A stretch of DNA of 38,596 bases from Octopus sinensis (lineage: Eukaryota). Positions 5,056-38,526 of this stretch are shown here, piece by piece; position 1 is the first letter of the stretch, and each line of letters begins with the position of its first letter. The position numbers were made by a program, and so were the translations under genes. The notes under the pieces were generated by a model. It saw only the letters and a list, made by a program, of their open reading frames with translations, was not told where the DNA came from and did no database searches. The stretch covers positions 1-38,596 of the forward strand of contig NW_021832811.1 in NCBI RefSeq assembly GCF_006345805.1, read 5' to 3'.

Positions 5056-5368
5056 GCACCTGGTCCTGACTAAGACTTAGAAATATGTTCGCTTTTCTGA
5101 GAGATCAATTGAGCATTTTAATTTCTATAGAATCATATTTTAAGAGGAAAAAAGATGTCTATTCGTTCTGGGCAGGAAATCATGATAAATCCCTTTGTGT
5201 CCTATATCACTCATAGAGACCTGAGGGTCCGTTTGGCGTGGGTAGAAATATACATACATACATACATACATACATACAAACATACGTATATACATGCATT
5301 TATACATACGTACACATATATTATACGTACACATATATACGTACACATTATATGTACACATATATAAA

Positions 5369-5592
5369 TATTTCTTTACTACCCACAAGGGGCTAAACAT
5401 AGAGGGGACAAACAAGGACAGACAAAAGGATTAAGTCGATTACATCGACCCCAGTGCGAAACTGGTACTTAATTTATCGACACGGAAGGATGAAAGGCCA
5501 AGTCGACCTCGACGGAATTTGAACTGAGAACATAGCGGCGGACGAAATACGGCTACGCATTTTGCCCGGCGTGCTAACCTTTCTGCCAGCTC
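5369..5592 (-). mobile_element. tRNA-derived SINE family A
   Basis: Reverse complement gives gagctggcagaaaggttagcacgccgggc..cagttcaaattccgtcgaggtcgact..cctttcatcc..gtcgataaattaagtaccag, with B-box GTTCAAATTC; about 20 related copies in the window. Confidence 0.88.
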
Positions 5593-10081: not shown

Positions 10082-10119
<38 letters not shown>

Positions 10120-10137
10120 ATATATATATATATATAT
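9757..10137. repeat. (TG)n/(TA)n/(TATC)n microsatellites
   Basis: Direct inspection. Confidence 0.9.
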
Positions 10138-10140
10138 TTT

Positions 10141-12960
10141 GTTCGTCTCCCCATGGCCATTAGGCACAAACTTCACAAGCCCGCCCCATACTCCACTCGT
10201 CCTGTCGAAAGACCCTTGTCCCACGTCCTGGTTTTGTTTTGTTGTTTATTTTTTTATTTTATTTTTACCGTTATTGTTTTTACGTTTTTGTATTCTTATT
10301 GGTGTCACGTTATTCGTATTTTGTTTCTGTAACTTCGTTCTTTTTCCGTCCTCGCGTTGTATACATTCGAAGCTTTTCTCCGGGGATTAATGCGCTTGGC
10401 TTAGATTTCCCTTGGCTGCTGGCATATCGGAGCACAATCTCAAGATTAATCACCGAAATTGCTAAGATGATCTGGTCTTTGACTGATGACTGAGGGCTTC
10501 GAATGTCCCGTCCTGTGGTTCTGTGTCGTCTCTGTGGTGTTTTCATGTTCTTGTCCATGTCGTAATTATTTTACTGTTTACCTATATAATCGGCGGCTAC
10601 GTATCCACAATTGACCTTATACGATAAGTATATTTTTTCTCTAGCATTGATACGACTCTTAATCTGTCTCTTCTTCTCTCCTCTCCTCCCTCCTTATTCC
10701 CCTTCCTTTCTTTCCCTCTCCATCCGTCTCCCCCCCCTTCTACGTTTCTCTATCTCTCTCACCTCCAGCCCCCTCGATCTGTCTCTTTCTTCTCCTCCCC
10801 GTCCACCTTCTCTCTCTTTTCATCTGTCCCTTTCTCCTGTCTTCTGTTCTCAACGTGACAGCTAGCCGCCGTTGAGCGCTCTTTTCGTTTTCAGCAGCCG
10901 CAGAAGCAACACGTATTTGTTCGTCTCCCCGTGGCCATTAGCACAACTTCACAAGCCAGCCCCAATACTCAACTCGTCCTGTCGAAAGACCCTTGTCCCA
11001 CGTCCTGGTTTTGTTTTGTTGTTTATTTTTTATTTTTATTTTTTATACCGTTATTGTTTTTTACGTTTTTGTATTCTTATTGGTGTCACGTATCTGTATT
11101 TTTGTTTCTGTACTCGTTCTTTTTCCGTCCTCGCGTTGTATCACTCGAAGCTTTCTCCCAGGGGATCTAATGCGCTTGGCTTAGATTTCCCTTGGCTGGC
11201 TGGCCATATCGGAGCAATCTCAAGATTAATCAGCCGAAATTGCTAAGATATCTGGTTTTGACTGATGACTGAGGCTTCGAATGTCCCGTCCTGTGTTCTT
11301 GTGTCGTCTCTGTGGTGTTTCATGTTCTTGTCCATGTCTGTAATTATTTTTACTGTTTACCCTATATAATCGGCGGCTACGTATCCACAATTGACCTATA
11401 CGATAAGTTATTTTTTTCTCTAGCATTGATACGACTCTTAATCTGTCTCTTTTTCTCTCTCTCTCTCTCTTCTCTTCTCCTCCCTTATTCCCCCTTCCTT
11501 TCTTTCCCTCTCCATCCGTCTCCCCCCCCTTCTACGTTTCTCTATCTCTCTCACCTCCAGCCCCCTCGATCTGTCTCTTTCTTCTCCGCCCTCGTCCACC
11601 TTCTCTCTCTTTTCATCTGTCCCTTTCTCCTGTCTTCTGTTCTCACGTGACAGCTAGCCGCCGTTGAGCGCTCTTTTCGTTTTCAGCAGCCGCAGAAGCA
11701 ACACGTATTTGTTCGTCTCCCCGGGCCATTAGGCACAACTTCACAAGCCAGCCCCATACTCACTCGTCCTGTCGAAAGACCCTTGTCCCACGTCCTGGTT
11801 TTGTTTTGTTGTTTATTTTTTATTTTTATTTTTACCGTTATTGTTTTTTTTACGTTTTGTATTCTTATTGGTGTCACGTATTCTGTATTTTTGTTTCTGT
11901 ACTTCGTTCTTTTTCCGTCCTCGCGTTGTATACATTCGAAGCTTTCTTCCAGGGATCTAATGCGCTTGGCTTAGATTTCCCTTGGCTGGCTGGCCATATC
12001 GGAGCAATCTCAAGATAATCAGCCGAAATTGCTAAGATGATCTGGTTCTTGACTGATGACTGAGGGCTTCGAATGTCCCGTCCTGTGGTTCTTGTGTCGT
12101 CTCCCTCTGTGGTGTTTCATGTTCTTGTCCATGTCTGTAATTATTTTTTACTGTTTACCTATATAATCGGCGGTACGTATCCACAATTGACCTTATACGA
12201 TAAGTATATTTTTTCTCTCTAGCATTGATACGACTCTTAATCTGTCTCTTTTTCTCTCTCATCTCTCCTCCCTTATTCCCCTTCCTTTCTTTCCCTCTCT
12301 CCGTCTCCCCCCCCCTTCTATTCTACGTTTCTCTATCTCTCTCCCCTCCAGCCCCCTCGATCTGTCTCTTTCTTCTTCTCCCTCCCTCGTCCACCTTCTC
12401 TCTCTTTTCATCTGTCCCTTTCTCCTGTCTTCTGTTCTCACGTGACAGCTAGCCGCCGTTGAGCGCTCTTTTTCGTTTTCAGCAGCCGCAGAAGCAACAC
12501 TTATTTGTTCGTCTCCCCGTGGCCATTAGGCACAACTTCACAAGCCAGCCCCAATACTCAACTCGTCCTGTCGAAAGACCCTTGTCCCCACGTCCTGGTT
12601 TTGTTTTGTTGTTTTTTTTTTATTTTTATTTGTACCGTTATTGTTTTTACGTTTTTGTATTCTTATTGGTGTCACGTATTCGTATTTTTGTTTCTTCTGT
12701 ACTCGTTCTTTTTCCGTCCTCGCGTTGTATACATTTCGAAGCTTTTCTTCCAGGGGATCTAATGCGCTTGGCTTAGATTTCCCTTGGCTGGCTGGCCATA
12801 TCGGAGCAATCTCAAGATTAATCAGCCGAAATTGCTAAGATGATCTGGTTCTTGACTGATGACTGAGGCTTCGAATGTCCCGTCCTGTGGTTCTTGTGTC
12901 GTCTCTGTGGTTGTTTCATGTTCTTGTCCATGTCTGTAATTATTTTTACTGTTTACCTAT
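10141..12960 (+). repeat. Tandem array of ~780-796-bp units (3 full + ~0.57), A-B-A-B-A-B-A; putative PLE/retrozyme-like element
   Basis: Anchor gttcgtctcccc at 10141, 10919, 11711 and 12507. The array is flanked on both sides by (TA)n. CTGATGA occurs at 10483, 11262, 12053 and 12856. Confidence 0.95.
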
Positions 12961-12989
12961 ATATATATATATATATATATACATACATA

Positions 12990-15978: not shown

Positions 15979-16180
15979 ATGTGTGCCTGCGTGTGTGGTT
16001 GTGTGTGAGCCTCTGTGTCTGTATTTTTCCCCCCCATCAACCAGTGTTAGTATCTTTACGACCCCGTAACTTAGCGGTTCGGCAAAAGACACCGATAGAA
16101 TATTACTGGGCTTAAAATGTAAGTCCTGGCGGTCGATTTACTCGACTAAACGCTTCGAGCCGGTGCTCCAGCATGGCTAC
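15789..16180 (+). mobile_element. 5'-truncated SINE family B
   Basis: gaccaaggcttgtaagtggatttggtagacggaaactga..(TA/TG)n..ccccgtaacttagcggttcggcaaaagac..cggtgctccagcatggc. Confidence 0.85.
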
Positions 16181-16192
16181 TGGAACTCGACT

Positions 16193-16305
16193 GGATAATC
16201 TGGAACTCGACGGAAGAAAGAAAACTCTGAATGACCCGTCCTTGATATTTTGTATCGTCTGTCCGGATGTTTTGCGTTCTTGTCCCATTTTTGGTATTCC
16301 TTTAT
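16193..16305 (+). mobile_element. Diverged solo 3' end of the tandem-array element family
   Basis: gataatctgg..gacggaaga..gaatgacccgtcc..tcgtct..gttcttgtcc aligns collinearly with gatgatctgg..gactgatga..gaatgtcccgtcc..tcgtct..gttcttgtcc in the array unit; also ends at a TA tract. Confidence 0.6.
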
Positions 16306-20666: not shown

Positions 20667-21090
20667 GCGAAATGCTTAGCGCTATTTCGCCCGTCGTTAC
20701 GTTCTGAGTTCAAATTCCGCCAAGGAATTGTGGGTAGTAAAGAAATAGGTATTAAAAGTAAGGCGGCGAGCTGGCAGAATCGGTAGCACGTCGGGCGAAA
20801 TGCCGAGCTGTATTTCGTCTGCCGCTACGTTCTGAGTTCAAATTTCGCCGAGGTCGACTTTGCCTTTCGGGGTCGATAAATTAAGTACCAGTTACGCACA
20901 GGGGACGATGTAATCGACTTAATCCGTTTATCTGTCCTTGTTTGTCCTTTCTGTCTTTGGCCCCTTGCGGGTAGTAAAGAAATAGGTATTTCGTCTGTCT
21001 TTACGTTCTGAGTTCAAATTTCGCCGAAGTCGACTTTGCTTTTTATCTGTTGGAGGTCGATAAAATAAGTACCAGTGAGACACTGGGGTC
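20667..21090 (+). mobile_element. SINE family A: fragment plus dimeric copy
   Basis: Head aggcggcgagctggcagaatc at 20761; core repeated after gtagtaaagaaataggtatttcg. Confidence 0.88.
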
Positions 21091-21095
21091 ATTCT

Positions 21096-21840
21096 GACTT
21101 CAGAACTTAAAGACGGAAGAACAGAATAAAATAACCCTTTCTCCTATAGGCAAAATGCAAGTAAATTAAAGGGAGGGGTGCTTGTTGATTATATTGACCC
21201 CAGAACATGACTGGTACCTGTTTCATTGATTTTGAATGGATGAAAGGCAAAGTCGACCTCAGCAGAAATTGAACTGAGAACTTAGAGACAGAAGAACAAC
21301 AAAGAAATAGTCCTTTCTACAATAGACACAAGGCCTGAAATTTTGGGGAGGGATGGGACTAGCTGATTACTTTGACCCCAGAGTATGACTGGTACCTGTT
21401 TCATCGATTTTGAAAGATGAACGGCAAAGTCGACCTCAGCAGAAATTGAACTGAGAACTTAGAGACGGAAGAACAACAATGAAATAGTCCTTTCTACAAT
21501 AGGCACAATGCCTGAAATTTTGAGGAGGGATGGGACTAGCTGATTACTTTGACCCCAGAGTATGACTGATACCTGTTTCATCGATTTTGAAAGATGAACG
21601 GCAAAGTCGACCTCAGCAGAATTTGAACTGAGAACTTAGAGACGGAAGAAATAGTCCTTTCTACAATAAGCAGAAGACCTAAAATTTTGGAGAGAGATGG
21701 GGCTAGTTGATTACAATGACCCCAGAGCATGGCTGATACTTTCTTTTATTTTCATCGACTCCGAAAGGATGAAAAGAAGAAGTTGACCTTGGCGGTATTC
21801 GAACTCAGAACGTAAAGGCGGCGGAAGAACAACAACGAGA
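21096..21840 (-). repeat. SINE-A-derived tandem repeat, ~177-bp period, ~4 copies
   Basis: Anchor gtcgacctc/gttgacctt at 21252, 21429, 21606 and 21782. Confidence 0.92.
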
Positions 21841-23306: not shown

Positions 23307-23320
<14 letters not shown>

Positions 23321-23522
23321 ATTGAGGTAATCAGATCAGATGGTTCATATTTGTAGATATTTATTTATATATTACATTTTTTACATATATATCATATCAT
23401 TCGGATTAGCGCTTGCTCCCATTCTAGTGGGTTTTCAAATCAAATCAGTTGTGGGTAGTTTGAACCTTTTTATAGTTTCGTAGTAGTGGGTGAGGAGGAA
23501 GTGAGGCAGAGAGAAAATATGT

Positions 23523-23903: not shown

Positions 23904-24117
23904 ACATATTTTCTCTCTGCCTCACTTCCTCCTCACCCCTACTACGAAACTATAAAAGGTTCAAACTACCCACAACTGATTTGATTTGAAAACCCACTAG
24001 AATGGGAGCAAGCGCTAATCCGAATGATATGATATATATGTAAAAAATGTAATATATAAATAAATATCTACAAATATGAACCATCTGATCTGATTACCTC
24101 AATTTTTCTAATATATA
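23307..24117. repeat. Near-perfect ~280-bp inverted duplication with ~255-bp spacer
   Basis: Arms 23307-23587 and 23843-24117 are reverse complements, including an internal (TG)n; only about two small differences were seen outside the microsatellite. Confidence 0.95.
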
Positions 24118-31532: not shown

Positions 31533-31629
31533 GGAGTATACATGGTTGGAGGCTATCTATTTAGAATAAGCCAACGGAATATAACTCTAAATTCTTATCT
31601 AATAGGAATTATAACAGAATTTATATATA

Positions 31630-31873
31630 AAGATTGTTTGCCAACATAACATGGCAGTCCTGGTTTAGGACGAATGTTGCTGTAATTTAGCCCCAGGAGA
31701 CATTGTCTCAAGCTGGCTATACGACACGATCTGTGTCCTTATATTTTCGAACAAGGGAATATAAGGAGACAGATCGTGTCGTATTGCCAGCTGCAGACGA
31801 TATCTCCTGGGGCTAAATTACAGCAATATTCGTCCTAAACTAGGACTGCCATGTTATGTTGGCAAAAAATCTT
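31630..31873. mobile_element. Fold-back (palindromic MITE-like) element with 116-bp arms
   Basis: Arms 31630-31745 and 31758-31873 with 9 mismatches and a 12-nt centre; TSD not clear. Confidence 0.75.
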
Positions 31874-32695
31874 TTACTACAAAGTGCTGTTGCTGAATAT
31901 CTCACGACTATTGCTATTTTAAATTACTATTTTTAAATGACAATTTTTAGGTCTCATGAGTTTTCAAAATAGTAATTTTCTAAGAATTTATATAGTAACC
32001 GTTGAGACTGACAAAGTTTTGAAAACCTAACTGTGAGTAAGACGGTAAACGTTTGGAATACATTCACCGCATGTTTAATAAATACGTAGCAAAAATATTT
32101 GCTATCGCAGAGGAAAATATGAGCCACGGATAAACCATAGAAGTTTTAATTGTTAAAGATAGTTAAAAGTCAAACCTAAGATGATATCTGCAAGTTTCGA
32201 TTCTTATTAAACATTCATCACGGATCATTTGCTCTCATGTTGCATTTGACAAAGTTATGGAGAATATTTGTACTCATAAATTATGCAAACCATTTTTTAA
32301 AAAAAAGAACAATCATATATCCGATCCGTTTAGAAGCAATTTCATTGCACAGCTTTCGGCTGCACACTTTTAAGTGCAACTACAATCAGTAACAGACAAA
32401 AAACAATACCTAGGGTATATATATGTGTGTGTGTGTGGAACGAGTAGTGACTTTTTAAGTGGAAACACGTGGCTGTAATAACGGTGGTACAATGCGCAGT
32501 GATATTGACTGGAAGTGTACGTAGCTTAATATATAATTGACTAAACACCTCTTTTGCACAATGAAGCGACAGCTTTAACAAGAAGCGAATTGTCTTGGGT
32601 ATCATTATCTACGATTTAGCAGTGATGGTCGGTGTTAATATGTCTATTGTTTGAGTGTGTCAGAAGTCTTGACAACAATAGCACATAACAACAAC

Positions 32696-38127: not shown

Positions 38128-38526
38128 ATTTCTATTATAGGTAGAAGGCCTGAAATTTGCGGGGAGTGGGCTAAGTCGAGTATATCGACCCCAGTGTGTA
38201 ACTGGTACTTAGTCAATCCACCCCGAGAAGAATGAAAAGTTAAGTCGACCGCGGCGGGGTTTGAACTTAGAAGGTAGCGGCGGGCGAAATACCTGTTTCT
38301 TTACTACCCACAAGGGGCTAAACATAGAGGGGACAAACAAGGACAGACATAGGTATTAAGTCGATTACATCGACCCCAGTGCGTAACTGGTACTTAATTT
38401 ATCGACCACGAACGGATGAAAGACAAAGTCGACCTCGGCGGAATTTGAACTCAGAAAGTAACGGCAGACGAAACACGGCTACGCATTTCGCCCAGCGTGC
38501 TAACGTTTCTGCCAGCTCGCCACCTT
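38128..38526 (-). mobile_element. Dimeric SINE family A
   Basis: Core occurs twice, separated by tttctttactacccacaaggggctaaacatagaggggacaaacaaggacagac; head ..gtgctaacgtttctgccagctcgccacctt; sits between (AAT)n tracts. Confidence 0.9.

What the first reader, a model, noticed from the sequence alone, without database searches (positions are those of the whole stretch)
10141..12960. Terminally redundant ~790-bp tandem element inside a (TA)n tract: candidate retrozyme/PLE-derived system
Seen: A-B-A-B-A-B-A structure (A ~450 bp, B ~330-340 bp, pyrimidine-rich), no coherent ORF, and both ends in (TA)n. Every A carries gaCTGATGA-ct-gag-(g)gc-ttc-GAA-tGTC-ccgtc about 100 nt before its end, preceded by a long imperfect hairpin (cttag/ctaag, atttc/gaaat, ggctg/cagcc). 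Established: retrozymes and PLE termini form partial tandem arrays with HHRs whose cleavage releases monomers that can circularise. Inference: four motifs would release three ~790-nt monomers, and the array could come from rolling reverse transcription of a circular RNA. Caveat: the core is non-canonical (GAAU rather than GAAA, weak stems).
Basis: partly seen in the sequence, partly recalled or inferred. Interest (0 to 1): 0.8.

Follow-up and report, generated by a model that had tools for sequence, protein, structure and literature searches.

The report
Retroposon with a rewired hammerhead ribozyme
A 790-base non-coding repeat, copied hundreds of times into TA runs of this animal genome, carries the parts of a hammerhead ribozyme in a scrambled order, and many copies begin at the predicted cut site, so it likely cuts its own RNA with a fold we did not find described.

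Summary
The array is real (10138-12957: 3 units of 778-796 bp plus a partial unit). It is one insertion of a young non-coding retroposon with 747 exact 3' ends in G000, a fixed 3' end in (TA)n, variable 5' truncation and head-to-tail tandems: the Penelope-like pattern. The GAAA lies upstream of CUGAUGA and the predicted cut is AUC at 10439/11219/12009/12811, not 10507. The order is stem-II strand, cleavage site, GAAA, CUGAnGA. This resembles the type-SGC permutation known only from metatranscriptomes, but the stem II 5' strand is detached from A9 and lies upstream. The helices covary across 16 subfamily representatives, and the same order shows by eye in 8 of 30 published Naiad 3' ends (three phyla), a clade reported to lack hammerheads. 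28 of 93 copies reaching the site stop within 24 nt of it (background 2%), and an unrelated family repeats this (8 of 25). Cleavage was not assayed, circles are unshown and no autonomous partner was found. The scan's earlier notes hold no such ribozyme.

The parts
10138..12957 (+). One insertion of a non-coding tandem retroposon, 3.6 monomers, 5'-truncated at the left
10118..10137 (.). Left (TA)n target tract
   Evidence: 70 of 99 copies have a TA run at the 5' junction
12958..12981 (.). Right (TA)n target tract at the fixed 3' end
12781..12868 (+). Permuted hammerhead, unit 4: closing helix 5' arm 12781-87; stem II 5' strand 12790-94; bridging helix 12796-802 with 12842-48; stem III 12805-10 with 12831-36; cut after C12811; stem I 12812-17 with 12850-55; stem II 3' strand 12823-27; GAAA 12828-31; CUGAUGA 12856-62; closing helix 3' arm 12863-68
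11979..12066 (+). Permuted hammerhead, unit 3 (predicted cut after 12009)
11189..11274 (+). Permuted hammerhead, unit 2 (predicted cut after 11219)
10409..10496 (+). Permuted hammerhead, unit 1 (predicted cut after 10439); stems II and III carry small indels in this assembly
10583..10588 (+). Internal (TA)3 at the unit junction, likely the priming site on the RNA (also 11363-68, 12160-65)
   Evidence: same junction in 34 of 35 genomic junctions
12166..12503 (+). B segment, pyrimidine-rich 5' part of the monomer (also 10589-10915, 11369-11707)
12455..12510 (+). Zone where long copies often begin; possible transcript start (its equivalent holds the array's left end)
   Evidence: 6 of 12 second-pass stops against 2 of 43 first-pass; noticed post hoc

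Best explanation
This is a non-coding tandem retroposon with a fixed 3' end in (TA)n, likely copied by a Penelope-like reverse transcriptase in trans, and each unit holds hammerhead parts in a rewired order that likely cut its RNA 146 nt before the 3' end. Shown: the insertion pattern, the conserved core, covarying helices I, II and III and a bridging helix, and the pile-up of 5' ends at the predicted site. Inferred: (1) The RNA folds as a hairpin (bridging helix plus stem III) whose loop holds the cut site and GAAA and pairs with both flanks: upstream to form stem II, downstream to form stem I followed by CUGAnGA. A9 is not joined to G10.1; the two ends often pair as a closing helix. (2) Cuts in successive units release a monomer of about 790 nt. 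(3) A GIY-YIG nick in (TA)n anneals to the internal (UA)3 and primes reverse transcription. On a cut linear RNA this runs off at the cut and gives copies of about 130-150 bp; on uncut precursors or ligated circles it gives tandems like this one. (4) The ribozyme came from Naiad-type elements.
For: Insertion pattern: 747 exact 3' ends against 0 in the control; 16 of 20 loci show the same 3' end and the other 4 run off the locus; 31 of 99 copies cross a unit junction. Stems I and III of 6 WC pairs each: 0 of 20000 shuffles with the cores fixed. Upstream stem II, not used to select hits: at least 4 WC pairs in 12 of 16 clusters (null mean 2.0, max 10) and at least 5 in 8 (null mean 0.5, max 4). 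In 16 chosen representatives, stem II is WC in 77 of 80 cells with four different sequences, stem I in 78 of 80 and stem III in 61 of 64, and a bridging helix of 4-10 bp is present in all 16. Truncation: 28 of 93 copies stop at q643-666 (cut at 646/647), background 2.2% per bin, highest other bin 7.8%, next upstream bin 1 of 65. Unrelated family C: 8 of 25, with 1 in each neighbouring bin. The motif lies downstream of Naiad-type RT in L100/L181, L183, L204, L211, L213 and L218. By eye it is in 8 of 30 Naiad consensus 3' ends of Craig 2021.
Against: No cleavage assay. In families B, C, D and E a weak downstream stem II (3-4 pairs, mostly two G-U, 1-nt insert) is also possible. Four of 16 clusters lack the upstream strand: 2 are 5'-truncated, 1 rearranged and 1 has G-U at the first pair. 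L247 has stems I and III and the bridging helix but no upstream stem II match. The clusters are related, not independent, and the best register was picked for each sequence. Old Naiad copies show little pile-up (1 of 30 by eye). The nested fold is not unusually stable (z 0.40; pseudoknots are not modelled). No autonomous partner was found: the longest open frame among 151 Naiad RT matches is 320 aa, and the Neptune-like family with long ORFs uses a type I hammerhead. The short linkers between the bridging helix and stem III pose a steric question that was not modelled.
Confidence: 0.75

Rival explanations
1. The active fold is plain type SGC: stem II is made by the G-rich strand just after CUGAnGA, and the upstream strand is an off-switch that masks stem II.
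For: A G lies 1-2 nt after A9 in all 16 representatives; families B, C, D and E can form 3-4 pairs there. This family has a 4-bp option after a 5-nt insert. L247 lacks the upstream strand.
Against: In the five A-type representatives at most 2 of 5 positions pair at inserts of 0-2 nt, and subfamily A3 has no downstream option within 7 nt. The acanthocephalan Naiad has no G there but a perfect 6-bp upstream strand (by eye). The bridging helix starts 0-5 nt after the upstream strand, as helix 'I' follows stem II in SGC ribozymes.
Confidence: 0.13
2. The core is built between two units or two molecules (dimer or trans), as for minimal Penelope hammerheads, so the single-molecule pseudoknot does not form.
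For: Minimal PLE hammerheads are proposed to act as dimers (PMC4209133); the element occurs in tandems; the linkers are short.
Against: Stem III is long (4-8 bp) and not palindromic. A dimer would still need the detached stem II strand.
Confidence: 0.07
3. The motif does not cleave; the pile-up marks a transcription start, a reverse-transcriptase stall or TA microhomology.
For: No RNA-end data. Five ends share one TA-microhomology position. The Naiad family shows little pile-up.
Against: The pile-up starts at the predicted NUH in two unrelated families. 0 of 93 copies stop in the bin where reverse transcriptase would first meet the helices, and 1 of 65 in the upstream bin despite an ATAT there. 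The full core is kept across diverged families.
Confidence: 0.05

Closest known systems
Type-SGC non-circularly permuted hammerheads (HRIMA-1; Eckert et al. 2023, PMC10085705)
   Same: Order cleavage site, GAAA, CUGAnGA; short stem I to stem II linker; a helix tying the distal ends of stems I and II; canonical core.
   Different: There stem II follows CUGAnGA within 1-2 nt and block C is assumed indivisible; here the strand lies 21-27 nt upstream of the cut. That paper found no SGC ribozyme in genomes of known organisms; this one is in thousands of animal genomic copies.
Animal non-LTR retrozymes (PMC7229834; bioRxiv 10.64898/2026.07.22.740005)
   Same: Non-coding tandem units with one hammerhead each, non-autonomous, linked to PLEs; unit length within the 51-972 bp range of the preprint.
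   Different: Defined by a type I hammerhead; circular RNA shown there, not here.
Naiad Penelope-like elements (Craig et al. 2021, PMC8557442)
   Same: (TA)n target, 5' truncation, partial tandems; the same ribozyme order in the 3' UTR of several Naiads, including ones flagged 'HHR_half_core'.
   Different: No ORF, no sequence match to a Naiad beyond the ribozyme design. Naiads were reported to lack canonical hammerheads.
Pseudoknot (PK) hammerhead (PMC11300833)
   Same: Hammerhead core with stem II remodelled by a pseudoknot.
   Different: A9 stays joined to G10.1; the connectivity is pistol-like.

Membership tests
Hammerhead ribozyme | Core CUGAnGA, GAA, A15.1-U16.1, H17 | tested here: met
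   All four units; 16 of 16 representatives
Hammerhead ribozyme | Stems I, II (G10.1-C11.1) and III abutting the core, with covariation | tested here: met
   stem II through the upstream strand
Hammerhead ribozyme | Site-specific self-cleavage 3' of H17 | not testable with these tools
   Indirect only: pile-up of 5' ends
Hammerhead types I/II/III | Circular order of blocks, three-way junction without pseudoknot | tested here: not met
   GAAA precedes CUGAUGA by 28 nt; no Rfam hit
Type-SGC hammerhead | Block order S-G-C and a helix joining distal stems I and II | tested here: met
Type-SGC hammerhead | Stem II strand within 2 nt after CUGAnGA | tested here: not met
   This family: at most 2 of 5 pairs; a weak option exists in families B-E
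Non-LTR retrozyme | Non-coding tandem units, each with a hammerhead | tested here: met
Non-LTR retrozyme | The hammerhead is type I | tested here: not met
Non-LTR retrozyme | Monomeric linear and circular RNA in vivo | not testable with these tools
   Only contigs were available
Non-autonomous Penelope-like element | Fixed 3' end, 5' truncation, partial tandems, microsatellite target, no ORF | tested here: met
Non-autonomous Penelope-like element | 3' end shared with an autonomous RT/GIY-YIG family | tested here: inconclusive
   No partner in the loci (checked); only top candidates were scored
Non-autonomous Penelope-like element | Inverted 5'-truncated copy or 30-40 bp tail | not tested
   Not examined systematically

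The most novel reading that the evidence does not exclude
A new natural hammerhead architecture in which the core is split between A9 and G10.1 and stem II is supplied from upstream. It is the missing ribozyme of many Naiad retroelements in cephalopods, cnidarians and acanthocephalans, and is present in thousands of copies in this genome.
Probability: 0.68. Interest if true: 0.93.

Novelty: new variant of a known kind. Interest (0 to 1): 0.87.

Why it matters
It would add a connectivity outside the six permutations that Eckert et al. held possible, and it would be a non-circularly permuted hammerhead in animal genomes. It would revise the claim that Naiads spread without hammerheads, and it shows that standard descriptors miss a large class of genomic ribozymes. 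The 5'-end pile-up offers a DNA-only readout of cleavage and makes the long-proposed role of PLE ribozymes in processing the template directly testable.

Tried and rejected
Minus-strand ribozyme: no descriptor hit in the window. Plain SGC with a 4-nt insert: the two-G spelling of window units 2 and 4 is a minority, most copies have three G. Local duplication or assembly artefact: copies and tandems lie on many large contigs. Rfam, tRNA and ORFs: nothing relevant. RNA evidence: no RNA holder listed. Four runs were laid as contigs from three organism codes, and all hold pieces of the element, but contigs cannot show ends or expression. Partner search through GIY-YIG and Naiad RT: none found; family C next to Neptune-like ORFs (L042, L032) is a separate insertion. 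Splicing as the way to join A9 to stem II: an acceptor-like sequence precedes stem II in families C and E, but no GT donor is conserved and this family lacks it. Two papers were not held (Lunse 2017, Hammann 2012), so hammerhead variants listed there were not checked.

Full report
1. Observation. The window is a whole 38.6-kb contig of a 2.72-Gb microsatellite-rich genome. A blocks start at 10138, 10916, 11708 and 12504, and the element ends at 12957 between (TA)n tracts. The units are 92-95% alike, with many small indels; I infer read error for much of this. There is no credible ORF, no tRNA and no Rfam ribozyme match.

2. The element. A 241-bp query gave 1488 candidates, of which 40 were scored. 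Of 20 loci, 16 show the same right end followed by (TA)n and 4 run off the locus, while the left ends vary. An exact 3'-end pattern has 747 matches against 0 for the control. I took the first 100 of these 747; 99 could be chained. Median length is 359 bp, 31 cross a unit junction, 4 cross two or more, and 70 have a TA run at the 5' junction. The junction carries (TA)3 in 34 of 35 cases. So the + strand is sense, the monomer is B+A, and copying starts at a fixed internal TA motif that matches the target. This is the pattern described for Penelope-like elements, with (TA)n preferred by Naiads (PMC8557442).

3. The ribozyme. With both cores fixed, 0 of 20000 shuffles reach that, while 123 meet a relaxed descriptor. 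The order site-GAAA-CUGAnGA is type SGC of Eckert et al., who assumed that the stem II strand follows CUGAnGA within 1-2 nt and found no SGC ribozyme in genomes of known organisms. Here the WC partner of the strand before GAAA lies upstream of the cut. It is followed by a bridging helix whose partner precedes stem I, the position of their helix 'I', and the sequence after A9 often pairs with the sequence before stem II.

4. Comparative test. Core patterns give 1842 matches against 5, 13168 overlapping matches against 63 and 146 against 0. Of 126 core-only hits in my loci, 90 had stems I and III. I dropped 3 as truncated, and the remaining 87 formed 16 clusters. Upstream stem II has at least 4 WC pairs in 12 clusters (null mean 2.0, max 10 of 2000 shuffles) and at least 5 in 8 (mean 0.5, max 4). 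The 4 misses are two truncated copies, one rearranged copy and one with G-U at the first pair. In 16 hand-picked representatives, stem II is WC in 77 of 80 cells with compensatory changes at positions 2-5 and four distinct sequences; stem I is WC in 78 of 80 and stem III in 61 of 64. Stems I and III were selection criteria, registers were optimised per sequence, and the subfamilies are related. Against my reading: families B-E could also form a weak downstream stem II, L247 lacks the upstream strand, and the closing helix shifts register between families.

5. Link to Naiads. Family B lies downstream of Naiad-type RT remnants in six places and matches by eye the 3' UTR of the octopus Naiad consensus sequences, so the host is likely an octopus. 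I saw about 450-600 nt of the 3' end for 30 of the 54 Naiad consensus sequences in that supplement; names were assigned from the record order. By eye, eight show the full order: three near-identical Acropora families, Naiad-2_Movir, Naiad_Plae, Naiad_Obim, Naiad_Ovul and Naiad_Esco (one mismatch in stem II). The other 22 did not show it in the part seen; several show type I- or type II-like cores. A Neptune-like family in G000 has a type I hammerhead with the U3-A8 variant (the variant is described). No autonomous partner for this family was found, and the 151 Naiad RT matches have open frames of at most 320 aa.

6. Genomic footprint of cleavage. With the cut at q646/647, 28 of 93 copies reaching it stop at q643-666. 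The background is 2.2% per 24-nt bin (binomial p 5e-24), with 0 of 93 in the bin just downstream and 1 of 65 just upstream. In unrelated family C (first 30 of 188 pattern matches), 8 of 25 stop at -3 to +20, with 1 in each neighbouring bin. Old Naiad copies (30 of 169) show 1 by eye. Copies that read through keep the site exact in 75 of 81 cases, and one has 4 extra bases at the cut. That zone holds this array's left end. The simplest reading is three kinds of template: cut linear RNA (short copies), uncut precursors starting near A, and perhaps circles. Circles as templates were proposed earlier and shown for retrozymes, but are not shown here.

7. RNA data. No holder is on record as RNA, and contigs cannot show ends.

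8. Literature. Searches. None listed a paper describing this connectivity or a permuted hammerhead in Penelope-like elements, and 'type-SGC' occurs in one paper only. The library lacks most subscription papers. Read: PMC10085705 parts 3-6 of 8 and passages; PMC8557442 passages, section 6 and parts of the supplement; the 2026 preprint parts 1-2 of 5 and passages (its supplements are closed); PMC11300833 parts 1-2 of 6; passages of PMC7229834, PMC4209133, PMC13725137 and PMC10162972. The supplements of PMC10085705 were not read and could hold related SGC variants. Standard hammerhead numbering is recalled and agrees. The scan's notes gave nothing by sequence, words or place and one related element without a ribozyme.

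9. Verdict. The element class is known (retrozyme-like, Penelope-type; about 0.95). Cleavage at the new site is likely (about 0.9). The detached stem II as the active fold is probable (about 0.75) and is the novel part. Naiad-type mobilisation is about 0.55, and circular intermediates about 0.4.

Noticed in passing
window 16178-16303: 5'-truncated, decayed copy of a related subfamily (post-GAAA part and 3' tail ending in TA), next to another common repeat.
   Followed up: partly
window 23307-23470 and 23954-24117: Perfect 164-nt inverted repeat, 483 nt apart.
   Followed up: no
window 31620-31883: 126-nt inverted arms, 90% complementary, 12-nt spacer.
   Followed up: no
window 21186-21739: 177-bp tandem repeat, 3.2 copies.
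   Followed up: no
window 5364-5487, 20863-21046, 38232-38415: Dispersed repeat in both orientations.
   Followed up: no
L028 2362, L037, L041, L042, L043: Neptune-like family with a type I hammerhead carrying the U3-A8 core variant; several copies have 760-880 aa open frames.
   Followed up: partly
L129, L173, L179, L169 (families C, E): A pyrimidine tract ending in CAG abuts the upstream stem II strand and looks like a 3' splice site; role unknown.
   Followed up: partly
L084, L173, L151: Other non-coding families with the same ribozyme order form tandems of 861, 835 and 657 bp.
   Followed up: partly
L247 near 5729, minus strand: Motif with stems I and III, bridging and closing helices but no upstream stem II match.
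   Followed up: partly
PMC8557442 supplement, Naiad-1_Movir and Naiad-4_Chem 3' ends: Sequence resembling a twister ribozyme (motif recalled, by eye).
   Followed up: no
PMC8557442 supplement, bivalve and hemichordate Naiad 3' ends: A shared conserved 3' UTR motif that is not a hammerhead, possibly another structured RNA.
   Followed up: no
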